Shown here in pieces: positions 90 through 28,591 of a stretch of 41,602 bases of DNA. A program made the translations under genes and the position numbers. The DNA is taken from NCBI GenBank assembly GCA_000442015.1, contig KE560467.1, forward strand, positions 1-41,602, read 5' to 3'. How positions within the stretch are numbered: position 1 is the first letter of the stretch; each line of letters opens with the position of its first letter. The stretch is from Rozella allomycis CSF55. Lineage: Eukaryota. The notes beneath the pieces were generated by a model, which was given only the letters and a program-made list of their open reading frames with translations, did no database searches and was not told the DNA's origin.

Positions 90-1589
90 TTATGCTTGAT
101 GGGTAGCTGAAAAATCCAACGAATTTTTAGGACGGTCATGTATTTTGTCAGCATCAATGTAACCATAATTGAAAGCTAAATGAATTGTTTTTCTTTCTAT
201 CGCATTTGGATCGATTCTAGCGTCTTGTAAAATTTTGACTACTTCCACATAATCATTCTCAGAAGCCCATCGTAGGGCATAATCGTCCCGATCAGTTGGG
301 TCTATTCTAGAATCTTCAAGTAGAATTTTGACAATATCGGCATGACCGTACTTTGAAGCATGCCGTATTGCATAGTTATCCCTCACACTAGGGTCCACTC
401 TAGAATCTTGAAGTAGAATTTTGACAACTTTAACATGACCGTTCTCAGAAGCATGACGTATGACGTAATTAGTACATGCACTAGGGTCTACTCTAGGATC
501 ATTTAGTAAAATTTTGACTATTTCCACATGGCCGTTCTCGGAAGCATGCTTTATAGCATTATTACTCCTGCAACTCGGATCTACTCTAGAATCTTGAAGT
601 AACATTTTGACGGATTCAACATAACCAAGCTCAGAAGCACGTCTTATGGCATAATTATTTTGTTCACTTGGATCTACCCTAGAATCTCCAAGTAGCACTT
701 TGAGAACACCGCTGTGATCGTTCTCTACAGCCCATAACATGGCCTCATTATTATCAGCACTTGGGTCTACTCTTGAATCGGTAAGTAAAATTTTGACTAC
801 TTCAGCATGGCCGTATCTTGAAGCGAGTAGAATGGCTTTATTGCTCAATACACTTGGGTCTACTCTATCATCATCAAGCAAAATTTGGACAACTTCCACA
901 TATCCTTTCATGGAAGCACTTCGAATGGCATAATTTCCCCTTTCACTTGGGTCTACTCTAGAATTTTTAAGCAATAGTTTGACAACATCAGCGTGGCCTC
1001 TTGAAGAAGAGAGTTGAATAGCTTCATTTTGAAGGGCACTAGGATCGACTCCAGCTTTTGCTAATAGATATCTTACAATTTCGGTATGGCCATTACGCGC
1101 AGCCAATCGGATGGCATAATTTTGGCCTGCCGAAAGATCGGGTGTGATATTGTTCTGATATTGTAAGATAGTTGAATCATTTGTCTCCATTCTGTCATGA
1201 TTGCTTTCATGATCAATCACGAGGGAAAGATATTTAGTGATACCATACTCACAAGCAAAATGTAGCGCGCCGTTAGCAGCTTTTTGAGTTTTGGGATTTT
1301 CAATGAGACACTTCAAAAAATTTACCAGCCCTTGATGTATTCCATCGTCGTTAAAGAAAGCCGTGCAAATATCCATGCTTAACACTTTTCCGCATCTATG
1401 CTTAATTATCTTTTGGATAATATAGGGGCATTTCCATGAGCAACAAATCTCAGGATCCCGATGAAGGATTGAATCCAAGCAAAGTGAGCGAATCCAGCGT
1501 GACGTTTGTGACATGTGTTGTATGTCATATAGGTGTAAATTTGACAGAATTAGATTCCAAATCTCGCATGGGAAGTTTTGGTTGACCAT
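90..1589 (-). CDS. F-box + ankyrin-repeat protein (31-aa 'VDPS' type repeats), intronless
   Basis: N-terminal F-box-like FPCEIWNLILSNLHLYDIQHMSQTSRWIRSLC, then about 10 repeats of GHxxVVKILLxDSRVDPSxxxNxAIxxASxx. Paralogue of 6728-9423 (shared SWKCPYIIQK linker). Confidence 0.88.
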   Translation of the reverse strand: MVNQNFPCEIWNLILSNLHLYDIQHMSQTSRWIRSLCLDSILHRDPEICCSWKCPYIIQKIIKHRCGKVLSMDICTAFFNDDGIHQGLVNFLKCLIENPKTQKAANGALHFACEYGITKYLSLVIDHESNHDRMETNDSTILQYQNNITPDLSAGQNYAIRLAARNGHTEIVRYLLAKAGVDPSALQNEAIQLSSSRGHADVVKLLLKNSRVDPSERGNYAIRSASMKGYVEVVQILLDDDRVDPSVLSNKAILLASRYGHAEVVKILLTDSRVDPSADNNEAMLWAVENDHSGVLKVLLGDSRVDPSEQNNYAIRRASELGYVESVKMLLQDSRVDPSCRSNNAIKHASENGHVEIVKILLNDPRVDPSACTNYVIRHASENGHVKVVKILLQDSRVDPSVRDNYAIRHASKYGHADIVKILLEDSRIDPTDRDDYALRWASENDYVEVVKILQDARIDPNAIERKTIHLAFNYGYIDADKIHDRPKNSLDFSATHQA

Positions 1590-5473: not shown

Positions 5474-5759
5474 AGCAAAAACAGAAATGTTTAGTACAAA
5501 GTTTTTGAATTTTAATCTTGATACTTGTTTATTGAATGTTTATGCGGTGTTAGAGATGTTGATGTATGCTTCAATGCAACGGCAAGGAATTATTTCGAAT
5601 GACTATTCTTTTATTTGACAGTAACAAATACCATAAGCATGTCTTAAAGAAAGTGGTTCGAGTTTGAACGTACAAAAATCTGCATGTTGATTTGAAATTT
5701 CAATTGCAATTTGAATACAGTCCATAAAAAGGTCAACCACTTTGACCAACGTAATTGAA

Positions 5760-5825
5760 GTGAGAATCTGGATCTACCTTAGAATCTTATTTCTAAATGA
5801 CCATTCTTAGTCGCCATAATGATTG
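5760..5825 (-). pseudogene. Degenerate fragment of the 93-bp ankyrin repeat family
   Basis: GGATCTACCTTAGAATCTT and TTTCTAAATGACCATTCTTAGTCGCCATAATGAT match the ankyrin gene at about 8940-9012, with an internal deletion. Confidence 0.7.
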
Positions 5826-5990
5826 CTAGCGTCATTGCATGAATGTTGTCAAATGTGATCACCCCTTGTCTTCCAAACGCTTCAGGAATTAAATGGTCAA
5901 ACGACCAAATATATTTGGCTTATTTGCCAATCATATAAGTTAGGTGAAAGTTAAAAATATACATTTGACATACATAATGATTCAACCTAA

Positions 5991-6410
5991 TTTGCTGACA
6001 TACAAGCCCTTGAAGTTCAGTATCTTAGTGCTGCTGCGTTTCCATCAACCTTTCCAGTGGAAGGCTCAATACTTGGGGGAAATCATCGCTTGATGATAAA
6101 TCTTGCATGTCGCCGCCGATCAAAAACTTATGCACCTGTTGTTAAAATCATTTTCTTGGTTGACACAGGCTCTCCTGTCACCTACCTGTCAAAAGATGCC
6201 ATAGAAGCGTTGATAGGAAAGAAATCTGAGAATCTTCCAAGTAGTATCCACGTGTTGATTCAACAGCAAGAAATCGCTGTTGAGTGTCACATGTCTCCAG
6301 AAAAATCTTATTTTGCTGATGTAAATGTTCTAGGAATCAACTTTCTGTCCAAGCTTGGTTTAACAATGTCTATGGATTTCAAGATGGATCAGTTTACTCT
6401 CAATAAATGA
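5991..6410 (+). pseudogene. Single-domain retropepsin-like aspartic protease, probably 5'-truncated
   Basis: IIFLVDTGSPVTYLS catalytic motif and downstream VNVLGINFL motif. The frame opens after an in-frame TAA at 5988-5990 with no convincing ATG. Confidence 0.6.
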
Positions 6411-6727
6411 AGTCTTGCACAAATATTGCAATCGTTTTGAAAGTCGATAATCAACTATTATATATCCTCTTGCAACACTTCAATCAAGATACCAATGCAA
6501 ACCATAATTTCATCAAATTTGGCGCATACTGCATCATGATGGTCACCGTCATCAACTGTCAAATCTAGCATTCCCTGTAATTACGAAATAGCTAAGGTAC
6601 CTCTTAATATCTTGGCTTTTCACTATTAAAAAATAATTTCATCCGATTCAACATAAAAGAATAGAAAATAGTTGTTTTGTGAAGAAATTTATTTTTATCT
6701 CATCTCTTAATTAACTCCCCGTCCGAT

Positions 6728-9423
6728 TTAACAAGCACTGCGAGACTTGTACTCCATGTTAGTACTCTCATTAACTCTACGGTCTTGCAAAAAAAGGTCA
6801 ACAACGTCCCCATGGCCGTTCTGAGAACTTGGATCTACTCTAGAATCTTGAAGCAAAAGTTTAACAACTTCTGAGTGCCCGTTCTGTGAAGCGAATCGAA
6901 TAGCATCATTACGCTCATCACTTGGATCTACTCTAGGATCTTGCAACAAAAGTTTAACCACTTCTGCATGACCGTTCATTGAAGCCATTCGAATAGCACC
7001 ATTGTTCCAACCACGTGGATCTACTCTAGAATCTTGAAGCAAAAGTTTAACCACTTCGACATAACCGTTCTGTGAAGCGAATCGAATAGCATAATTGCTA
7101 TGAGCACTTGGATCTACTCTAGGATCTTGCAACAAAAGTTTAACCACTTCTGCATGACCGTTCTTTGAAGCGATTTGAATAGCATAATTGTCCCGAGAAC
7201 CTGGATGTACCCTAGAATCTGTCAACAAAAGTTTAACAACTTTTAAGTGGCCGTACTGTGAAGCCATTTGAATAGCATTATTACGCTGAGTACTTGGATC
7301 TACTCTAGGATCTTGCAACAAATGTTTGACTACTTCTGAGTGCCCGTTTTGTGAAGCAATATGAATAGCATAATTGTGCCACACACTTGGATCTACCCTA
7401 GAATCTTGCAACAAATGTTTGACTACTTCTGAGTGCCCGTTCATTGAAGCCATTCGAATAACATAATCGTTCCAACCACGTGGATCTACTCTAGAATCTT
7501 GAAGCAAAAGTTTAACAACTTCTGAGTGCCCGTTCTCTGAAGCGAATCGAATAGCATAATCGACGCGAGAACCTGGATCTACCCTAGAATCTTGAAGCAA
7601 AAGTTTAACAACTTCTGAGTGCCCGTTCTCTGAAGCCAATCTAATAGCATAATTGATGCGAGAACCTGGATCTACCCTAGAATCTTGCAACAAAAGTTTA
7701 ACCACATCTGCATGACCGTTCTTTGAAGCCATTTGAATAGCATAATCGCTCCAACCACGTAGACCTATTCTAGAATCGTGAAGCAAAAGTTTAACAACTT
7801 CTGAGTGCCCGTTCTGTGAAGCGAATCGAATAGCATCATTACGCTCATCACTTGGATCTACTCTAGGATCTTGCAACAAAAGTTTAACCACTTCTGCATG
7901 ACCGTTCATTGAAGCCATTCGAATAGCACCATTGTTCCAACCACGTGGATCTACTCTAGAATCTTGAAGCAAAAGTTTAACCACTTCGACATAACCGTTC
8001 TGTGAAGCGAATCGAATAGCATAATTGCTATGAGCACTTGGATCTACTCTAGGATCTTGCAACAAAAGTTTAACCACTTCTGCATGACCGTTCTTTGAAG
8101 CGATTTGAATAGCATAATTGTCCCGAGAACCTGGATGTACCCTAGAATCTGTCAACAAAAGTTTAACAACTTTTAAGTGGCCGTACTGTGAAGCCATTTG
8201 AATAGCATTATTACGCTGAGTACTTGGATCTACTCTAGGATCTTGCAACAAATGTTTGACTACTTCCGCATGACCGTTCTGTGAAGCAATGCGAATAGCA
8301 TAATTGTCCTGAGAACCTGGATCTACCCTAGAATCTTGCAACAAAAGTTTAACCACATCTGCATGACCGTTCTTTGAAGCCATTTGAATAGCATAATCGC
8401 TCCAACCACGTAGACCTATTCTAGAATCGTGAAGCAAAAGTTTAACAACTTCTGAGTGCCCGTTCTGTGAAGCAATATGAATAGCATAATTGTGCCACAC
8501 ACTTGGATCTACTCTATAATCTTGCAACAAAAGTTCAACCACTTCGGCATGACCGTTCTTTGAGGCGATTCGAATGGCATCATTTTTCTTATAACCTGGA
8601 TCAACTCTCGAATCTTGCAATAAAATTTTAACAACTTTCGCGTGACCGTTTTGTGAACCATTGTGAAGAGCACCATTGTCGGAATCACTTGGATCTACTC
8701 TAGAATCTTGCACCAAGAGTTTAACAATTTCTGCATGACCGTTATTTGAAGCCAATCTAATAGCATAATTGAAGCGAGAGCCTGGATCTACCCTAGAATC
8801 TTGCAACAAAAGTTTAACAATTTCTAAATGNCGTTACGCTGATCACTTGGATCTACTCTAGAATCTTGAAGCAAAAGTTTAATCACTTCGACATAACCGT
8901 TCTGTGAAGCGAATCGAATAGCAGAATTGCTATGAGCACTTGGATCTACCATAGAATCTTGCAACAAAAGCTTAACAATTTCTAAATGACCATTCTTAGA
9001 CGCCATAATGATAGCGTTATTTTCAAAAACACTCGGATCAATTATCGGTAAATGAATCATCATTGACACATATTGATTGAGACCGTACTTACAGGCAAAC
9101 ATAAACGCATAATTTGCAGTCTTTTGAGAACAAATGTTTTTCACTTCTAAAGCTTTGAGGAAATCCACCAGTTCTTCAAGTTCTCTTTTAGTATCAAACA
9201 TGTGCCTGCAAGTGTCTATCTGTAGAAATTTACCACATTTCTGGTTGATTAGTTTTTGAATAATGTATGGACATTTCCATGAAAAATGTTTTTCTGGAGC
9301 TTGATGAAGGATTGATTCTGAGCAAACCAGATGATGCCATTGGGAAGTCCTTGAGATTTGCTTTATGTCAGTTAAGCTTAAGTGTGACAATATTATGTGC
9401 CAAATCTCATATGGTAAGTTCAT
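6728..9423 (-). CDS. F-box + long ankyrin-repeat protein (about 24 or more 31-aa repeats), split only by an assembly N at 8831
   Basis: MNLPYEIWHIILSHLSLTDIKQISRTSQWHHLVC F-box, followed by near-identical repeats GHxEVVKLLLQDSRVDPxxxxNxAIxxASxN. Intronless. Confidence 0.88.
6790..9010. repeat. Tandem array of 93-bp units with higher-order block duplications
   Basis: Conserved core GGATCTAC(T/C)CTAG(A/G)ATCTTG every 93 bp. Identical blocks recur at offsets of 930 (7201 vs 8131), 651 (7750 vs 8401) and 1116 (7375 vs 8491) bp, all multiples of 93. Confidence 0.95.
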
Positions 9424-10258: not shown

Positions 10259-12109
10259 TTATAGATTAACTTTTAATGCTAGACAATTTCGGTTATTTAA
10301 AATGTTTGATAGTTTGAGATCAAAATATGAATTTCCAATCAGATTTATTTCAATTGATTTGCAATAAATATTTTGCAAGAGAATAATTAAACCATTTTCA
10401 GTGAGTGAATTGAAAGACAAGTCGATCTTGTTTAATCTTTTAGACTGGTTAATCCAATTAATAATTTCATCAATGGATTTATCATCAATGTAGTTGTAAG
10501 AGATATCTAAATAGTTGATATCCAATTGGTTATCAAGTAGAAATTTCATGAATTGAATTAAACCAACGCTTTTAAAGTCATTAAAATTCAGATTTAAATA
10601 CTCCAAAGTTTGCGTTGAAATAGTGATACTATCATTTAATGATGTGTTGCTATTATTGGAAGAGGTACAATTTTCAAACCTATTTTCTGAAATACCTGAA
10701 ATTTTGTTTTCAGATAAATCTAATCTCTTTATCTTTGTAGTTGAAATAATTGCAAGTAGATTTGAAAATGATTGATTTGAAATTCTTAATCCTCTAAGAT
10801 TCAAGTTTTGTAACTTTGAATTTGATAAGCCTTGAAACATATGTGCAAGGGTTGTAGAATGAAAGAAGCAAAATGATAAATCAAGATGAATTAACTTAGT
10901 TTTATGTAAAAGAGAGAAAATATTTTCACTTTTTAAATTGTTTTTTGATAAATTTAATGATTTTACATTTGAATGAATTAAATGGGAAACAAAGTTGGCA
11001 GCTCCAACGTCTGTGAATTGATTCCCTTGAAGATTAATGGAAATCAAATTCGAATCTTTTAAATTTGATCCAAGAAATTCTAAATCTTCATCATTAATGT
11101 AAAATCTTTCAAGAGTTAAACTTTTCAATGATTTTGTTGCTTTAATTAATTTCTTTATTAATCCTTTAAACTCTTCAAGTCCATTATTAGTCAATTTCAA
11201 CGTTTGTATTTTAGATTGTGGCAGATGTTCAATCAAAGCTTCTAATCCATCTCGATATATAAATTCATCCAACTCTAAATGCTCTAAATTCGATTTAATC
11301 AATTCTCTCATTTCTGCTGCATGAATCATATACGCATTATCAACCAACTTTAATCTCTTCAAATTATGATTCAACTGAATCGGCTTTTCGTACTCCATCT
11401 CATTTTCCATTTCCAGACTAAAATATTTGACTTGGCTATTCTTCAACTCATCCATAATTCTTTCTATTTTAGATCCAAAATTATTGTTAAGAAAAATCAA
11501 CTCTTTCAATTGTCTCGATTGCATCACCTTAATCAAAGCATCAATCATTCTGTTATTCCAATTAACACGCACATCGGAAACCTGAAATTTTGAATAGATT
11601 AATGGTAAAGATGTAATCAATTCAAGCATTCGTTCCAAATCATGCCCTCTTCTCACATCTCTAATTACAATCTCATCAATCTTTTCGATCCCCTTAAATC
11701 TCCTTTTATATTCTCTGAAATTTACGATTCTTGATTTGAAAAGAAATCTTATGACACAATTCTTACTATAGAGAACATGCCTAGGAACCAAATTTTGAAA
11801 TTCAATCAATGCACCAGGTGATTCAAATGAGAACACTACTGGCTTTCCATAAACTATTTTTCGGTTGGTAATTCCCAATTTACCCAAATCTTTCCATTCT
11901 CTTAATTCTTTAGGTTTAAATTCATGCATGACGAGACTATTCTTTACATCTGGACTAGTGCGAACCAAATTCTCAACATCACTTGTTTCCAAATATTGTA
12001 CTATTTCATTCAACATTTCGGTTGGCAAAGTTTCCAACATTGATTTCGCTACATTAGTTATTGATAGGCACACATGAATAAAAATTGAAAATACTAGTGT
12101 TAATCTCAT
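10259..12109 (-). CDS. Signal peptide + F-box + RNI-like leucine-rich-repeat protein (putative secreted effector)
   Basis: Hydrophobic leader MRLTLVFSIFIHVCLS, F-box LETLPTEMLNEIVQYLETSDVENLVRTS, many LxxLxLxxNxI/F repeats (e.g. LISINLQGNQFTDVGA). Intronless. Confidence 0.88.
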   Translation of the reverse strand: MRLTLVFSIFIHVCLSITNVAKSMLETLPTEMLNEIVQYLETSDVENLVRTSPDVKNSLVMHEFKPKELREWKDLGKLGITNRKIVYGKPVVFSFESPGALIEFQNLVPRHVLYSKNCVIRFLFKSRIVNFREYKRRFKGIEKIDEIVIRDVRRGHDLERMLELITSLPLIYSKFQVSDVRVNWNNRMIDALIKVMQSRQLKELIFLNNNFGSKIERIMDELKNSQVKYFSLEMENEMEYEKPIQLNHNLKRLKLVDNAYMIHAAEMRELIKSNLEHLELDEFIYRDGLEALIEHLPQSKIQTLKLTNNGLEEFKGLIKKLIKATKSLKSLTLERFYINDEDLEFLGSNLKDSNLISINLQGNQFTDVGAANFVSHLIHSNVKSLNLSKNNLKSENIFSLLHKTKLIHLDLSFCFFHSTTLAHMFQGLSNSKLQNLNLRGLRISNQSFSNLLAIISTTKIKRLDLSENKISGISENRFENCTSSNNSNTSLNDSITISTQTLEYLNLNFNDFKSVGLIQFMKFLLDNQLDINYLDISYNYIDDKSIDEIINWINQSKRLNKIDLSFNSLTENGLIILLQNIYCKSIEINLIGNSYFDLKLSNILNNRNCLALKVNL

Positions 12110-12542: not shown

Positions 12543-14171
12543 CTAGGCCTTTAAGCATCTGACGAGGCACATGCTATCCATTTGTCTCATCAAGTATGGT
12601 GTCAATATAGAATTTTGGCGTATTATGGCCTCCTTCAACGAGTCCTTCTGAGAATAGTCTCGCACATACAGATCAAAATATTTGAAATTCGATGTCTTGG
12701 CTAAAAGTTCGCCAGTTCTTCTTTTAACACTTTGATTAAATTTTGTTAGCTTTTGGGAGTATGAAGTGTATTGATTAAGTGTTGGAAGACTAACATCCAA
12801 AACAGGGACAGAAAATTTGTCATTGTTAATCCCTGATTCGTTCATCTTTGCCTCACGATAGTCTTTGAACGCCTTGTCAAATAAATGTTGGTTATCTCCA
12901 AGGCTGGACCTAATCGAGTCTTCAATATCACGTCTGTGTAAACCAAACAATGGAATCCAATTAAAATCCTTATTAATGTTTTGCACATCGAAAACATCGT
13001 ATTGATATTTTGCATCAACGCCTTGGCATGAATTTAACATTGTCATAAATTTGTCTTTAGCTTCATTGTAGCTGTTAAGTAAATTTGTACTCTCTTCTTT
13101 AAGACTAGTTATGTTTTTCGCAAAATTATCTATTTCAGTCTCCAAAATCAAATATTTATCAATTTGCTTCTTTAAGTTCTCATTTTCTGTAGCAAATTTC
13201 TTTTCATTATTCAATAAATCTTCGCGTGTCGTAGAGTCCGTGGTATTTAATTCTTTTAATCCAATTTCCTTTATTTCAAGCATCATAGAATTTAAATCTT
13301 CAGGTAAAGTTGTAGATCTTGTCGTGATCTTTTGAAAATCAAGCACAAATTTCTCTCTCGCTTGACGATAAGTCTCGATCTCTTGGTTCATTCTTTCATA
13401 CGCAGCCTTGGCTTTAATCATAGCGTCAGTGCTAAAAGTCTTACCATTATTTTCCACGCATTTTTTGACAATTTCAGAATACGCTTTAACTGCAAAAGCT
13501 TTTCTGGCCTCGGCATGAGACATTGGCCTAGATCCTCCAAATGCTACCCAGTGCCTATAAAATAAATATTTCACAGTATCCAGGAACTCCTTAGCTTGGG
13601 GCGCAACTGCCATAAATTTTCCCTTCAATTCTTCAATTTTCTTTTGTTCATCTTCTTCCGTCACCACAGAATCCGCTTTAGTAAACACAATAAAACCTTG
13701 TTTAAAACCTTCCTTGGTAATTAATGATGTCATGAAATTGAATACATTAGCAAGCTGAGATTTACATGCCCTATCCACAGGATATAAGAAAAAGAAAGCA
13801 TCAATTCCATCTTTCAACAGTGTCGGCACCTTTTCAGCTATTAAAGTTGCCACCTCATTGTTTTTGGCTTCGTCATCCTCAAATCCAGGAGTATCCACAA
13901 CGTGCAAATTGACACCATCAATAGAGCAGTCATAACCTTTACATTCAGTAGTAACGGAATCCATAGAGTTAGATGATTTCGCAACTTCTCTGTTGTCGTT
14001 TGGCATCAAATCGAACAAGCCATGCAATACGTTAACCATAGTCGATTTTCCTGACCCGAAATAGCCGAGCAGCAGAACGTTCAAGCGCCTATTACATACG
14101 TCAGACTCAATAGGTGAAGCATGGAGTAGCTCGGGAAACCAAATAAGTGTGAGGACTGAAAAGAATTTCAT
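12543..14171 (-). CDS. Signal peptide + AIG1/GIMAP-like GTPase + coiled coil
   Basis: Leader MKFFSVLTLIWFPELLHA, G1 VLLLGYFGSGKST, G2 SVTTEC, G3 VVDTPGF, G4 VFTKAD, long helical C-terminus. Intronless. Confidence 0.85.
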   Translation of the reverse strand: MKFFSVLTLIWFPELLHASPIESDVCNRRLNVLLLGYFGSGKSTMVNVLHGLFDLMPNDNREVAKSSNSMDSVTTECKGYDCSIDGVNLHVVDTPGFEDDEAKNNEVATLIAEKVPTLLKDGIDAFFFLYPVDRACKSQLANVFNFMTSLITKEGFKQGFIVFTKADSVVTEEDEQKKIEELKGKFMAVAPQAKEFLDTVKYLFYRHWVAFGGSRPMSHAEARKAFAVKAYSEIVKKCVENNGKTFSTDAMIKAKAAYERMNQEIETYRQAREKFVLDFQKITTRSTTLPEDLNSMMLEIKEIGLKELNTTDSTTREDLLNNEKKFATENENLKKQIDKYLILETEIDNFAKNITSLKEESTNLLNSYNEAKDKFMTMLNSCQGVDAKYQYDVFDVQNINKDFNWIPLFGLHRRDIEDSIRSSLGDNQHLFDKAFKDYREAKMNESGINNDKFSVPVLDVSLPTLNQYTSYSQKLTKFNQSVKRRTGELLAKTSNFKYFDLYVRDYSQKDSLKEAIIRQNSILTPYLMRQMDSMCLVRCLKA

Positions 14172-14344
14172 CAGATGACAAGGGTAACGGATTCAGGAAA
14201 TTTGGATCTAAAAGCGCATCTGTGAAATTTATGTAAAATATGACTGAACCTCAATGTTCCCAAAGTGATTTCGGCGAATGGTTTCCATTTGTTTTACTTC
14301 AAAATGATCTGAAATATAAAACACTGAAAATGTGTCATCAGTTC

Positions 14345-14500
14345 AGCAAGACCATTCTCTGAAGCAATGCGAATGGCATAATTTTCCTGGGAACCTGGTC
14401 AACTCTCGAATCTCTCAACAAATGTTTAACCACTTCATCAAGACCATTCTCTGAAGCAATGCGAATGGCATAATTGTACCGAGAGGCTAGATCTACTCTC
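14345..14500 (-). pseudogene. Degenerate ankyrin-repeat units
   Basis: ACCATTCTCTGAAGCAATGCGAATGGCATAATT occurs twice about 92 bp apart and matches the 93-bp unit. Contains indels. Confidence 0.8.
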
Positions 14501-14808: not shown

Positions 14809-14994
14809 CACTTAATGGGATTGTGTATATAATTATTTCGCAACTGATGTGACTAGATATTGTTGGATCTCGTATACTACTATTAATAGAACAAACCGAG
14901 TTAAAGGCTCGGAGATATTATAAATAAATAATCCGATCTCATACGACATATGTTTTGTTTTTAACTAAGTTTCTTTCTATTTCACTCAAGCAAG

Positions 14995-15428
14995 TTGAAT
15001 AGAATAATTGTCCTGAAAACGTGGATCTACATTAGAATCTTGCTACTTGCGCATGACCGTTCTGTGAGGCGAATCGAGCATTGTCCTGAGAACTTGGATA
15101 ATTGAATCTACCCTATAATCTCGGAACAAGACTTCCGGATGACAATTCTATGAAGCAATGCGAATAGCTTAATTGCACCGGAAAGCTGTCTCAACTCTCG
15201 TCGTCCAATAAATGTTTAATCACTTTCGCAAGGCTTAAATTCATGCATAACTAGACTATTCTTTACATCTGGGCTAGTGCGAACCAAGTTCTCGACATCT
15301 TCTATTTCCAAGTGTTGTACTATTTCATTCAACATTTCTTTTGACAAAGTTTCCAACGTTAATTTCGATGCATTCGTTTTTGATAGGCCCACATGAATAC
15401 AAATTGAAAGTACTAGTTTGAATCTCGT
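14995..15428 (-). pseudogene. Chimeric pseudogene: signal-peptide/F-box head of the LRR family joined to degenerate ankyrin repeats
   Basis: 15231-15428 aligns to 11912-12109, with the start ATG changed to ACG at 15426-15428. Directly downstream on the same strand, 14995-15230 carries ankyrin-unit remnants (AKVIKHLLD, GCATGACCGTTCTGTGAGGCGAATCGA). Confidence 0.78.
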
Positions 15429-15477
15429 TCAGAAATACGTCAACTTGTCAATGAATTACATCATGGCCCATTACTGG

Positions 15478-24521: not shown

Positions 24522-24853
24522 GGTTATGGATACTTGAAAGAATACAAGGTTCAGCAGTTTGTACGTGACACGCGAGTTCATCAAATACTAGAAGGTACTA
24601 ATCAAGTAATGAGAATGATAATTTCGCGTCAACTAATAAACAATTAGATTTAACCTTTTCATCCTTCTTTCAATTTCACACTCCGCCTAATAGATATTTA
24701 ATTGTTGTGAAGCGTAGACATTAATATATCAAAGAATATTTTATTTATTTAATGTCTTTAGTGAAACTGATTATAGACATGAAATGTACAAATGATGGTT
24801 ACAGGAGCTTGCTTCTCAACATGGGCATAACATAATTCTCCCAATAGTGTTCC
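24522..24853. repeat. Overlapping second copy (probable allele) of 24211-24520 after a scaffold N
   Basis: Near-identical sequence restarts directly after the N at 24521, with SNPs and a ~22-bp indel. Confidence 0.85.
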
Positions 24854-26130
24854 ACTTCTTTGTTAGGGATCGTTACTGCTTTTGCTTTGTAGAGATACGT
24901 CAGATGACCTGTCAACACGAGGTAATTCATTATTTTCTTCAATTGCCAATTTGATTCAGAGTAATTTACCTGGGTGCTTGTTAATTCGATTTCAAATGAG
25001 TTTCCTTCTAGCAAAATTGTAAAGATGTCCATTATTATAGATTTCTCATGGTATTTCATGAATTCTGGCAAATATGTTGTGCTTGTCGTTCCAGTCCAAA
25101 ATNGGTTTCCTTCTAGTAAAATTGTAAAGATGTCCATTATTATAGATTTCTCGTGGCATTTCATGAATTCTGGCAAATATGTTGTGCTTGTCGTTCCAGT
25201 CCAAAATATTGCACACTCTTTGCCTCGAGTTAACCAACTCATTAGTGAAAACGGATTAAATACTTGGTAGTCTCCAAAGTAGTACCCACCGTACCATTTC
25301 ATGACATGTTTCAGTGCTTCCTCATCAACTCCTAGCTGACGAACTTCTTCCACTGTAATCCCAAAATATGGACTGTATTTGTCATTCAAATACGAATGGA
25401 CTGTCATATGTTTACATTGAGACATCCAATCCATTTTAACCTCCCCCACTCCCACAATGCAGGCCTTGAAAAGTGCATCGTTGCCGTTCAAAGCGCTTGA
25501 CAAAAATTCCCCCAGGAATTCCATCGTTTGAGCATAGAATACTTCCCTGTGTGTTTTGTTAAATGGCGTATCATATTCATCGATTAATACAATCACTTTC
25601 TTTTTGTGGTACTCGCACAAGGTTTGCATCAAGTTGGAAAAACTACTTTTAACAAAGTCTTCACTGGGAGGATCTGAGAAAAATTTATTAAAATGAAAAG
25701 GATCTTCGCCAGGATATTTTAGGTCTATTACACTTCTATGCTCTTCAGCCATTTTTTGAACTGCGCTCCATAACTCCCTCAGTATTTCCATCCATGTACT
25801 CCCATGGACATGCATTAAATTTAGGTGTAGAACCGGATATTTTCCGCAATATTCTTCCATAAATGTTTTCACGTTTTCATTTGAAGACGAGCTTTCTTCA
25901 GCACCAATCTTCCTCTCAAATATAACCAATCCCCTAAATAAATCAGGATCAGTACCAATGCGAAAAAAGGATTTCAACATGGACAAATTCAAGCTCTTGG
26001 AAAATCTTCTTGGTCGAAGAATAAGATCAACTTGAGAAGGACTATTAATAAAGTCCTCGATAAAAAGTGACTTGTCGACGAAAAGAGCATCAAGATCTCG
26101 GAACTTTTCAAAAGATTGCGAACCAATCAT
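24799..26130 (-). CDS. Bacterial-type AAA-ATPase-like protein (family usually fused to a PD-(D/E)xK nuclease), intronless
   Basis: IGSQSFEKF..FVDKSLFI, LILRPRRFSKSLNLSMLKSFF (Walker A), VIVLIDEYDTP (Walker B), WYGGYYFG..VFNPFS, IPNKEV. Overlap duplication at the N at 25103. Confidence 0.85.
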   Translation of the reverse strand: MIGSQSFEKFRDLDALFVDKSLFIEDFINSPSQVDLILRPRRFSKSLNLSMLKSFFRIGTDPDLFRGLVIFERKIGAEESSSSNENVKTFMEEYCGKYPVLHLNLMHVHGSTWMEILRELWSAVQKMAEEHRSVIDLKYPGEDPFHFNKFFSDPPSEDFVKSSFSNLMQTLCEYHKKKVIVLIDEYDTPFNKTHREVFYAQTMEFLGEFLSSALNGNDALFKACIVGVGEVKMDWMSQCKHMTVHSYLNDKYSPYFGITVEEVRQLGVDEEALKHVMKWYGGYYFGDYQVFNPFSLMSWLTRGKECAIFWTGTTSTTYLPEFMKCHEKSIIMDIFTILLEGNXFWTGTTSTTYLPEFMKYHEKSIIMDIFTILLEGNSFEIELTSTQVNYSESNWQLKKIMNYLVLTGHLTYLYKAKAVTIPNKEVEHYWENYVMPMLRSKLL

Positions 26131-26439
26131 CAAGTCACACTGCGGCTCAGTCAAAGGTGCAAGCGAACCTCAAACTTTAATCGTTACATGCAATAAAAAT
26201 CAGGTTTTGAGGTTTATCACATAACAATATCCAATCTGATGACTGATAAATTTGTGTTAACTTTAGAAAAGCTAACAAACGGCGTCGATGAATAGGTGAT
26301 TCTCATTACAAAACGGATTGCTATATGAAAGACTCTTGGCAGTGACATCGCTTCGTATTCAAAAGATATGCGATCCTATCGCGCGCATGTACTTTGTTGA
26401 GTTTTATGAATTATACAATCCAGTGGTGGAGAATAGCGG

Positions 26440-26570: not shown

Positions 26571-26834
26571 GCACAAACCAACCTCACAATTTTAGCATTA
26601 CTTGCCCTTTGGATCCATATTAGTAAGTACATGCAAAACTTCAGTCTACCTTCATAAGGTGCACCACATGTCCACACGGGTTATCGGTCAAATCTCTAGA
26701 TAGATACGATAAATTAACAGTAACTCAATTTAAAAAAGATTCTGTAGAATGATTTCTTTAATTACAAATTCGCACATTGACACACGATTGACATGTTAAC
26801 CATCAAATTTAATCTTACATGGGTCGACCCTGGT

Positions 26835-28591
26835 ATGTTTGAGAAGATAATATTTTTTCTGTTTGTTCTTTTCACTAGTATACGCGCTGTCGATAAGTCA
26901 ATACTATTAAACAATCCCAATGATATTATGTTACAAGTATTTCAGAGTCTTGACTTCCCAGATATTAGGAGAATTGGAAATACTTGTCGTGCGATGAATA
27001 TGGCTACGACCAGGCACTTTGATCAATTTATTAATAGAGTATATATGGAAAATTACAAGGGAAAGATTCAAATTGACCAAGATGAAGCTTGCTCCGTTTC
27101 GTTGGCTGTTAATGAGAACTTTATCGATGAAGAGATGGATTGGTCTTTAGTTCCATTTAAAGTAACACTTGTCTTTAATGACTTTAATATCTTTCTACGA
27201 ATGAGAAACAAGAGTTTCTATCAGAATCTAAGATATAGCATATTGTTGGATAAGGAATATACATTTGATATCAATGTGTTGTCTAATGCATTAAACACTA
27301 TAAGGTCTTCTTATATTAACTTGAACACATTAAGAATAAATGGGCCCTTATCCTCTGAATGCTGCTCTGTCGTATCCAATTTTGCATCGGAATACAAAAC
27401 ATTAAAAAGCGTCGAAATTACAAATGCTCCTATGTCTTATTGTGAAATAGAATTACTTGAAAAACTTGTTAATCGTAGTAGCAAGGTCCAAAGGATAACT
27501 TTATCACATAATGGGCTTGTTTTCAATAGAGACGACGCTACAAGATTTNGCGAATGAAAAACAAGAGTTTCTATCAGAATCTAAGATATAGCATATTGAT
27601 GGATAAGGAATATACATTTGACATCAATGTGTTGTCTAATGCATTAAACACTATAAGGTCTTCTAATATTAACTTGAGCACATTAAGAATTAAAGGGCCC
27701 TTATCCTCTGAATGCTGCTTTGTCGTATCCAATTTTGCATCGGAATACAAAACATTAAAAAGCGTCGAAATTACAAATGCTCCTATGTCTTATTGTGAAA
27801 TAGAATTACTTGAAAAACTTGTTGATCGTAGTAGCAAGGTCCAAAGGATAACTTTATCACATAATGGGCTTGTTTTCAATAGAGACGACGCTACAAGATT
27901 TTCTGATCTTCTAATTAAAACAAAAATCACATCATTAAATCTTTCGCATAACAAGATCCGATCAGATGAATTTGTGTTTATTTTAGAAAAGCTGTCAAGA
28001 TTAGAAACCCTTGATTTGAGCTATAACAAAATGGTAATTTGGAAAGATCAGTTTTTTGTATTACTGAACGCATTATCGAGATTAAAGAAATTAAATCTTT
28101 CAGGAAATAATATTTATAGACTAGTAGCTTCAAGCGAAATGCTTCCTCCAAACTTGGAAGAATTGTCAATTGAGTTTTGTGATTTGAGTCGAATCAATGA
28201 TATAACAACATTGATTCATAGAAATAGCAATTTAAAGTCTCTAAATATTAAAGAAAATGGCTTTTTTGTTGATTTGGACTTCCTTGATGCTGTCATTGCA
28301 TCGAACTTGACGAAATTGCAAATATCCCGAAATTCCATTACATTGAAGCATTTAAAATATTTGGCAAGTGCATTTTACTCATTACCGAGATCGTTTATTG
28401 TGGAATTAGAGGTGCGCACTGAAGGGTTTTTGGCAAAATATGAAATGAATGTTCTTCTTTCGTTTATTGAAAAAATAAGAAATCACAAATTCAATGTGAA
28501 ACTTGTTCCGTATAGTCCACGTGAATTTGTTGAGCCATTATCAATGGGTGACATGTTTGCATCATTTCGCACGTTGTTTTTCCAAAACTAG
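26835..28591 (+). CDS. Signal peptide + F-box + LRR protein (putative secreted effector); ~350-bp overlap duplicated at the N at 27549
   Basis: Leader MFEKIIFFLFVLFTSIRA, F-box LLNNPNDIMLQVFQSLDFPDIRRIGNTCRAMN, LRRs ITSLNLSHNKI, LETLDLSYNKM, LKKLNLSGNNI. Intronless. Confidence 0.85.

What the first reader, a model, noticed from the sequence alone, without database searches (positions are those of the whole stretch)
6728..9010. Ankyrin array assembled by shuffling 93-bp cassettes with variable binding positions
Seen: the 31-aa unit is shorter than the canonical 33 and has NxAI in place of TPLH. The scaffold is nearly invariant, while the four residues after DP (SAHS, RGWN, SDER, STQR, SVWH, GSRD, GYKK, GSRI) and a few helix-1 positions vary. 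Whole units and multi-unit blocks recur in new orders at offsets of 7, 10 and 12 units. Known: these positions correspond to the hairpin/helix-1 binding surface randomised in DARPins, and repeat shuffling changes specificity in fungal HET-type NLR arrays. Inferred: a recombination-driven variable-binder system fused to an F-box.
Basis: partly seen in the sequence, partly recalled or inferred. Interest (0 to 1): 0.8.

Follow-up and report, generated by a model that had tools for sequence, protein, structure and literature searches.

The report
Allele-variable F-box ankyrin array, partly misassembled

Summary
The array is real: 21 full 93-bp ankyrin units on the minus strand (16 distinct), a conserved scaffold, and hypervariable loop and helix-1 sites. 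Public read contigs show it joins two haplotype ends that share the F-box exon but carry different first units, so unit order is polymorphic. A paralogue shows a 2-unit difference between its two versions. The 7- and 10-unit block repeats are doubtful: both vanish if the assembly chained an 11-unit and a 14-unit allele through one 44-bp shared stretch, and contig depth weakly favours this (about 60%). The 12-unit offset is only 47-59 bp. Exchange points lie inside units, so these are recombinant mosaics, not cassettes. Loop codons 5-7 show a nonsynonymous excess (neutral simulations P 0.007-0.023); site sets chosen in advance give weaker support. The gene belongs to a family of about 30 in Rozella allomycis. 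The 31-aa unit and the F-box+ankyrin layout are common in chytrids, amoebae and giant viruses. Best reading: an SCF substrate adaptor diversified by intragenic recombination, working like fungal NLR repeat domains without being an NLR. Four look-ups found no earlier scan note on this family.

The parts
9310..9423 (-). Start codon and F-box (residues 2-38)
   Evidence: Pfam PF00646 24.3-25.4 bits against a cut-off of 20.5; 15 of 16 family members match at E<=0.05; three helices in the model
9046..9309 (-). Family-specific helical linker of about 88 aa, ending in a degenerate ankyrin-like repeat
   Evidence: Conserved in 16 aligned members. The profile finds only 7 of 1.84 billion representatives; five map to G000 family loci
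8950..9042 (-). Unit 0, first full 31-aa unit, next to the unique linker
8832..8949 (-). Haplotype A continuation: a unit 2 nt from units 9/19, then 25 nt of a unit 2 nt from units 11/21
   Evidence: Contigs of runs X3 and X5 end at 8894, the last unique 31-mer of this version; the X5 contig also spans the F-box
8831..8831 (.). Single-N scaffold join between two overlapping haplotype ends (157-nt overlap); not a real frameshift
   Evidence: 6 of the other 11 N in the window have abutting flank duplications at 93-97% identity
8792..8830 (-). Haplotype B version of the unit-0 tail
   Evidence: F-box contigs of runs X1 and X2 end at 8947, the last unique 31-mer of this version, with exactly two unlisted differences
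6839..8791 (-). Assembled array of 21 units of 93 nt (u1-u21), 16 distinct, ankyrin fold
   Evidence: AF2 on u1-u8: pLDDT 91, pTM 0.87. Foldseek top hits are DARPins and ankyrins, TM up to 0.84
7779..8266 (-). 488-nt block, copy 1 (unit position 6.65-11.9)
6849..7336 (-). 488-nt block, copy 2, identical in the assembly; runs X1 and X2 show a differing base at 7279 (unit 17, codon 9)
7779..7822 (-). 44-nt stretch shared by u4 (8473-8430), u11 and u21 (6892-6849): probable point where two alleles were chained
   Evidence: u11 has the u21 head (83 nt exact) and the u4 tail (54 nt exact)
7660..7822 (-). 163-nt exact repeat of 8473-8311 (offset 7 units)
7304..7675 (-). Units 13-16: four mosaic units; in the two-allele reading they take the place of unit 6 (8326-8234)
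6728..6838 (-). Truncated last unit (10 residues including helix 1 missing) and tail; the last codons and the stop lie in a dispersed repeat of about 40 bp (6712-6750)

Best explanation
This is one member of a lineage-specific family of about 30 genes in Rozella allomycis, built as F-box + helical linker + 31-aa ankyrin units. The protein most likely works as an SCF ubiquitin-ligase substrate adaptor: the F-box docks on Skp1 (inferred), and the concave ankyrin face binds a target that is then degraded (inferred). Unequal crossing-over and gene conversion between near-identical scaffold stretches of units within the gene recombine loop heads with helix tails and add, drop or swap units (shown as mosaics and as haplotype differences). 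Selection favours change at the loop and inner-helix sites (moderately supported). The chromosome copies therefore carry different arrays. The 21-unit version in the window is most likely not one molecule: two alleles of about 11 and 14 units were chained through a 44-nt shared stretch (about 60%), and a further haplotype end was joined at the N. With no signal peptide evident, action in the parasite's own cytoplasm against fast-changing foreign proteins is my first guess (about 50%), ahead of delivery into the host (about 30%).
For: Fold. F-box; Skp1 domain present in G000. Family: 43 F-box/linker matches, 32 at E<1e-20, some of them haplotype duplicates; 386 units in 41 loci, with 287 of 300 short spacings equal to 93 nt. 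Haplotype variation: contigs of 4 of 4 runs (four studies) end at the two positions predicted for the two versions, 8947 (X1, X2) and 8894 (X3, X5). The flanks of these contigs differ at only 4-8 sites in 580-910 nt, against 30 in 157 nt at the overlap. Paralogue L047 has two versions anchored at both ends that differ by 186 nt. L003 has a 383-nt repeat at 5 units with a unique 82-nt spacer. Recombination. Selection: codons 5-7 pN/pS 2.3; neutral simulations allowing the best triple give P 0.007-0.023; in 21 paralogue loci, concave-side columns taken from public homologues give 1.45 (CI 1.17-1.70) against 0.41 elsewhere. Chained alleles. Block depth is 0.51, 0.76 and 1.04 times that of u2-u3 and 0.89-1.32 times that of the F-box contig in 3 of 3 runs holding these pieces, where a duplication on every copy predicts 2. 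The species is reported as triploid (PMC6784888, PMC9457484, passages; labelled diploid in figure legends of PMC10845963). Short-read assemblies omit or create such repeats (PMC12222747, passages).
Against: Site sets fixed in advance give only pN/pS 1.1-1.35 in the focal array, with intervals including 1, and 0.82-0.96 in paralogues for the DARPin-equivalent and a priori face sets. Synonymous sites may be constrained in this AT-rich genome, and mosaic units are not independent events. Contig depth is not a copy number, and 31-mer contigs cannot tell a cis duplication from two alleles. The F-box score is only 4-5 bits over the cut-off, F-box-like falls just under its cut-off, and the N-terminal profile has no PDB hit. 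The last unit is truncated and ends in a dispersed repeat, and the main contig of X1 and X2 has a 1-base insertion near the end, so the gene may be decaying. 5 of 6 paralogue overlaps aligned were collinear. The four runs may all be one strain.
Confidence: 0.6

Rival explanations
1. The 21-unit array is one true haplotype with a recent in-cis duplication of about five units; other haplotypes lack the block or differ.
For: The array lies in one contig without N between 8830 and 6728. Read-contig ends match the unitig borders predicted from the assembled array (7134-7321, 8324-8459, 6948-7033, 7412-7498). L003 shows a probably real 5-unit repeat. Any read spanning 46 nt or more over the u11 junction would support it.
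Against: One 44-nt overlap explains both the 7- and the 10-unit offsets. Block depth is not double. This assembly has exact same-contig repeats at non-unit offsets (329 and 339 nt in L002) and joins haplotype ends at N.
Confidence: 0.3
2. The family are effectors delivered into the host fungus to redirect the host SCF ligase, with the array tracking host targets, like Legionella AnkB or chlamydial F-box families.
For: Expanded F-box + repeat families occur in intracellular parasites (PMC4209131, passages). The parasite is intracellular (recalled). The closest viral folds are F-box+ankyrin proteins of pithoviruses and marseilleviruses.
Against: The F-box starts at residue 2, with no hydrophobic leader (best 9-residue mean 1.66, a crude test). 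The focal C-terminus has no CaaX pattern. No delivery route is known to me.
Confidence: 0.3
3. Neutral repeat instability: slippage and unequal crossing-over churn a young or decaying gene, and loop sites are merely unconstrained.
For: Truncated last unit, dispersed repeat at the stop, frameshift variant. Decayed units nearby. Homogeneous runs of 7-8 near-identical units in L005. A priori site sets near pN/pS 1. Purifying selection dominated in the chlamydial F-box families (PMC4209131, passage).
Against: Loop codons exceed neutral simulations. The scaffold is conserved, with pN/pS 0.4-0.5 outside the variable sets, and the frame is open over 21 units. The concave-side excess in paralogues has a CI above 1.
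Confidence: 0.2
4. The whole mosaic pattern is an assembly artefact.
For: N join with overlapping ends; fragmented short-read-type assembly, with many family loci broken by N.
Against: Units and their junction words are present in contigs of four runs with 0-1 differences. Focal units are at least 17 nt from any paralogue unit, so they are not borrowed from other loci. The two haplotype paths are each linked to the F-box exon in separate runs.
Confidence: 0.05

Closest known systems
Repeat domains of fungal NLRs with high internal conservation (Podospora HNWD WD40; ANK of Pa_3_8560). Source: PMC4986451, passages and sections 8 and 13
   Same: Repeat shuffling, repeat-number polymorphism, and positive selection on the concave ankyrin face (inner helices and hairpin loop)
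   Different: No NACHT or NB-ARC; an F-box stands in its place. Units are 31 aa, not 33-34. Identity to consensus is 0.77, below 0.85. No exchange between paralogues is seen. The host is an early-diverging parasite.
F-box + ankyrin proteins of giant viruses and protists with the 31-aa VDPS-type unit (Pithovirus and Marseillevirus entries; P0052, P0176, P0206; Thecamonas P0085)
   Same: N-terminal F-box followed by the same short ankyrin unit
   Different: The Rozella F-box+linker module has almost no outside relatives. None of the 28 longest public arrays listed has identical unit pairs. Allelic variation in them was not examined.
Legionella AnkB and Parachlamydiaceae F-box families (PMC4209131, passages)
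   Same: F-box + protein-binding repeats; expanded family in an intracellular parasite
   Different: Those are secreted bacterial effectors, and the chlamydial families evolve by birth-and-death under purifying selection. Here delivery is not shown, and the units recombine within the gene.
Expanded, positively selected F-box genes of Caenorhabditis elegans (PMC8120010, abstract only)
   Same: Large F-box family with variation mapped to the substrate-recognition part
   Different: The abstract describes point variants; here the binding part is a recombining tandem array.
DARPins (designed ankyrin libraries; position numbering recalled)
   Same: Constant scaffold with variable loop and helix-1 residues; top structural matches
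   Different: Overlap of positions is partial. The equivalents of DARPin 5 and 14 (unit positions 8 and 17) are nearly fixed here, while 9, 12 and 13 vary. The unit is 2 residues shorter.

Membership tests
Ankyrin repeat proteins | Stacked helix-turn-helix + loop repeats | tested here: met
   Pfam Ank_2 E 2e-115; AF2 pLDDT 91 with two helices per unit; Foldseek hits are ankyrins and DARPins
F-box proteins (SCF adaptors) | N-terminal F-box over the curated cut-off | tested here: met
   PF00646 24.3-25.4 bits against 20.5; 15 of 16 members match at E<=0.05; PF12937 just below its cut-off
F-box proteins (SCF adaptors) | Binds Skp1 | not tested
F-box proteins (SCF adaptors) | F-box and substrate-binding array on one reading frame | tested here: met
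   Intact paralogues; read contigs join the F-box exon to both array starts
Fungal NLRs with HiC repeats | Central NACHT/NB-ARC domain | tested here: not met
   No such Pfam hit in either part of the gene; only about 88 aa lie between F-box and repeats
Fungal NLRs with HiC repeats | At least 85% internal conservation over at least 100 aa | tested here: not met
   Identity to consensus 0.77; best 100-aa self-identity 0.75 and 0.81 in the two model alleles, 1.0 only through the doubtful block. T-reks itself was not run.
Fungal NLRs with HiC repeats | Repeat order or number polymorphism | tested here: met
   Between haplotypes: focal first unit; L047 2-unit difference. Between isolates it could not be established.
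Fungal NLRs with HiC repeats | Positive selection on the binding face | tested here: inconclusive
   Loop 5-7: P 0.007-0.023; paralogue concave columns 1.45 (CI 1.17-1.70); a priori sets include 1
Fungal NLRs with HiC repeats | Repeat exchange between family members | tested here: not met
   Focal units are 17-26 nt from the nearest of 363 paralogue units; 21 of 23 have their nearest neighbour within the locus
Secreted F-box effectors (AnkB type) | Delivery into the host cell | not testable with these tools
   No leader or CaaX pattern by a crude check

The most novel reading that the evidence does not exclude
The family is a natural repertoire of programmable degraders. About 30 F-box adaptors, each in up to three allelic versions, have their ankyrin binding faces re-assorted by recombination fast enough to track host or viral proteins. 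The parasite releases them into the host cytoplasm to steer the host proteasome, coupling an NLR-like diversity generator to ubiquitination in a lineage near the base of fungi.
Probability: 0.2. Interest if true: 0.8.

Novelty: new variant of a known kind. Interest (0 to 1): 0.5.

Why it matters
Repeat-shuffled binding domains under diversifying selection are known in fungi mainly from NLR receptors of filamentous species. The same regime on F-box adaptors in Rozella would extend it to ubiquitin ligases and to one of the earliest fungal-related branches. It points to a candidate arms-race family in a parasite whose host-interaction genes I found undescribed in the library searched. The 31-aa scaffold with natural loop diversity is also a ready test set for ankyrin binder design. 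As a caution, exact block repeats in this assembly cannot be read as biology without long reads.

Tried and rejected
1. Second assembly of the allele. Three protein searches found no hit above 62% identity to the array and none at all to the F-box+linker at 108-345 aa, so unit order could not be compared with an independent gene model.
2. Expression. No RNA holder listed; this says nothing either way.
3. Coverage gaps. Run X5 has little or no cover over 7587-7820 and 8172-8639; not used, since contigs drop variants.
4. Joints. Those with under 30 letters on one side (for example 6873-8844, 8873-8972, 6995-8832) were set aside as probable paralogue contigs. The 7557-8832 joint in X5 (43 letters, in register) is only a hint.
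The N-terminal profile had no PDB hit, and the VIA search was filled by the ankyrin part and barely tested residues 1-87.
6. A viral-contig scan with the array found no pattern match.
7. A fixed cassette boundary or site-specific integration was rejected, because exact matches begin and end inside units.
8. An adenine-directed retroelement mechanism is unlikely, because variable codons differ at all bases; no reverse-transcriptase search was run.
9. Paralogues or the nearby decayed units as donors: too distant (at least 17 nt per unit; 82-89%).
10. Literature. Rozella+ankyrin gave 3 unrelated papers by listing. Four searches gave 0 papers: Rozella+F-box+expansion+effector, F-box+ankyrin+chytrid+expansion, ankyrin+F-box+repeat shuffling+diversifying selection and the five-term search. 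One search listed nothing on this family. The library lacks subscription papers, and I read no supplements; a genome paper or its supplement may list the family.
11. No Rfam match for the terminal repeat.

Full report
What is in the sequence. The minus strand from 9423 to 6728 encodes an F-box (residues 2-38; PF00646 24.3 bits, cut-off 20.5), a linker of about 88 aa and ankyrin units. From 8791 to 6839 there are 21 exact 93-nt units and a truncated 22nd; 16 are distinct, with mean pairwise identity 79% in DNA and 67.5% in protein. Positions 4-7, 9, 12, 13, 16 and 20 vary; the rest is nearly fixed. AlphaFold2 on units 1-8 gives two helices per unit, pLDDT 91, and Foldseek returns ankyrins and DARPins. 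Positions 4-7 fall in the inter-repeat loop and 9-16 in the first helix. That these form the concave binding face follows from established ankyrin structure (PMC4986451, passage); I had no coordinates to measure it. The exact repeats are as reported at offsets 10 (488 nt) and 7 (163 nt), and 0 of 1000 unit-order shuffles reach 488 nt. Offset 12 is only 59 and 47 nt.

Organism and family. A paralogue in this genome (L022) matches a named Rozella allomycis protein at 149 of 149 residues; earlier scan notes use the same name. The species is reported as triploid (PMC6784888 and PMC9457484, passages) and labelled diploid in PMC10845963 (figure legends); either way it has more than one haplotype. 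The F-box+linker has 43 matches in G000, 32 at E<1e-20, some of them duplicated haplotype ends, so about 30 genes. I extracted 386 units from 41 loci; 287 of 300 short spacings are 93 nt. A profile of the F-box+linker finds 7 of 1.84 billion representatives: five map to G000 family loci, one is a family-like protein at 40%, one is an F-box-only match. The unit itself is not special. 70 of 120 public hits carry at least five 31-aa spacings, from chytrids, Planoprotostelium, Thecamonas and viral metagenomes. F-box plus this unit occurs in P0052, P0176, P0206 and P0085, and F-box+ankyrin proteins of pithoviruses and marseilleviruses are top viral fold hits.

The N at 8831. It puts the F-box out of frame with the array. 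The 157 nt before and after it begin at the same half-unit (2 differences in 39 nt, against 5-12 to other units) and then diverge: 21 differences in the next 93 nt and 7 in the last 25. Six of the other 11 N in the window have abutting duplications at 93-97% identity, the mark of two haplotype ends joined. Read contigs decide the matter. I computed where the last unique 31-mer of each version falls: 8894 for the version before the N and 8947 for the version after it. In one search the F-box contigs of X1 and X2 end at 8947 with exactly two differences not listed in the variant table, matching the two sites 8971 and 8951 (inferred; the letters were not shown). The X3 and X5 contigs end at 8894, and the X5 contig spans the F-box. 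So the F-box is linked to both array starts, and haplotypes differ at the first unit after unit 0, while the unique flanks differ at 4-8 sites in 580-910 nt. The reads show more paths absent from the window: a break at 8665-8694 with 30 unmatched letters in X3, three differences at the u8/u9 border, and a difference at 7279 inside the block. The runs come from four studies but may be one strain. In paralogue L047 two versions anchored at both ends (93% and 97%) differ by exactly two units; the five other overlaps aligned are collinear at 92-95%.

The block repeats. Unit 11 equals the head of unit 21 (83 nt) plus the tail of unit 4 (54 nt), overlapping by 44 nt. If allele 1 is u1-u10+u21 and allele 2 is u1-u4+u12-u21, both the 7- and the 10-unit repeat disappear, and the word sets are identical to the assembled array for word lengths 21-45. 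The two alleles would differ by one unit (u6) against four (u13-u16). 31-mer contigs cannot separate this from a cis duplication except by depth. Block depth is 0.51, 0.76 and 1.04 times that of u2-u3 and 1.32, 0.93 and 0.89 times that of the F-box contig in X1, X2 and X3, not 2. The tool warns that depth is no copy number, and one haplotype with two copies beside one with none would fit too. This assembly also has same-contig exact repeats at non-unit offsets in L002, and short-read assemblies are known to omit or create such repeats (PMC12222747, passages). I give chaining 60% and a true cis duplication 30%. L003 has a 383-nt repeat at 5 units with a unique 82-nt spacer, which needs a real end-to-start junction, so true block duplication probably does occur in the family.

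Recombination. Among 17 informative sites, 30% of pairs under 15 nt apart and 48-67% of pairs 15-74 nt apart show all four gametes (distance correlation 0.18, permutation p 0.03). Heads and tails have different nearest neighbours, and 13 unit pairs share 37-83 nt exactly. Borders lie inside units, in the scaffold. This is homologous exchange, not cassette insertion. It is intragenic: focal units are 17-26 nt from the nearest of 363 paralogue units, and 21 of 23 have their nearest neighbour in their own locus (216 of 386 family-wide).

Selection. Over distinct units, codons 5-7 have pN/pS 2.28. In five neutral simulation settings of 300 runs each, the best of all adjacent triples reached this with P 0.007-0.023. 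Column variability in the focal array follows that of paralogues (Spearman 0.81). I also used spanning-tree edges of at most 15 nt in 21 paralogue loci (80 edges; L041 dropped as a duplicate; only units starting V/I/L-x-P used). There the five concave-side columns among the eight most variable in public homologues give 1.45 (CI 1.17-1.70), the three outer ones 0.78 and the rest 0.41. Against this, DARPin-equivalent and a priori face sets give 0.82 and 0.96 in paralogues and 1.08-1.35 in the focal array, with intervals including 1. Synonymous constraint and non-independent mosaics could inflate the ratios. Support is moderate.

Mechanism. Shown: architecture, fold, mosaic units, haplotype differences. 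Inferred: Skp1 binding (a Skp1 domain exists in G000; binding untested), substrate recruitment by the concave face, and unequal crossing-over or conversion as the driver. Guessed: where it acts. There is no obvious leader or CaaX pattern, so I favour the parasite's own cytoplasm over host delivery, 50% to 30%. Decay is possible: the last unit lacks helix 1, the stop lies in a dispersed repeat with 40 genome matches, and X1 and X2 carry a 1-base insertion near the end.

Comparison and novelty. It works like the shuffled ANK, TPR and WD domains of fungal NLRs (PMC4986451, passages and sections 8, 13) but is not an NLR: no NACHT or NB-ARC, 31-aa units, identity to consensus 0.77, and no exchange between paralogues. 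It is an F-box/ankyrin protein by sequence. Each ingredient is known. The combination in Rozella, with allelic unit variation, was not found in my searches of a library without subscription papers, nor in earlier scan notes. Verdict: new variant of a known kind, interest 0.5.

Noticed in passing
window 6712-6750: A dispersed repeat of about 40 bp overlaps the gene's last codons and stop. It has 40 matches in G000 (reversed control 0), a sharp right end, an AT-rich left side, tandem copies in L059, very high read depth and no Rfam hit; possibly the end of a small mobile element.
   Followed up: partly
window 14328-14496 and 14988-15188: Decayed ankyrin units closest to focal unit 6 (81-89%), beside a decayed piece (15231-15438, 87%) of the start and upstream of the LRR gene at 10259-12109; looks like an old local duplication.
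   Followed up: partly
window 5752-5826: Short remnant of the unit 0/unit 1 junction (95% over 38 nt) downstream of the gene.
   Followed up: no
window 93-1589 (minus): Intact paralogue (F-box + linker + about 10 divergent units, mean within-gene identity 62%, no exact repeats): a slow member of the same family 5 kb away.
   Followed up: partly
window 5991-6410 (plus): 139-aa frame with a weak retroviral-type aspartyl protease match (PF13975, below cut-off), convergent with the array gene.
   Followed up: no
window 26781-28591, 10259-12109, 12543-14192, 24799-26169: Other candidate arms-race genes nearby: an F-box + LRR gene (split by an N with a 351-nt, 97% overlap), an LRR gene, an AIG1-type GTPase and a PF09820 AAA-ATPase.
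   Followed up: no
L005 2094-2850 and L008 1609-1990 (oriented coordinates): Paralogues with runs of 7-8 and 3-4 identical or near-identical units; recent expansion or assembly loop.
   Followed up: no
L047 (G000:C837): Two versions of one family gene joined at N, differing by two units; the single unit of the short version looks like a head/tail mosaic of units in the long one.
   Followed up: partly
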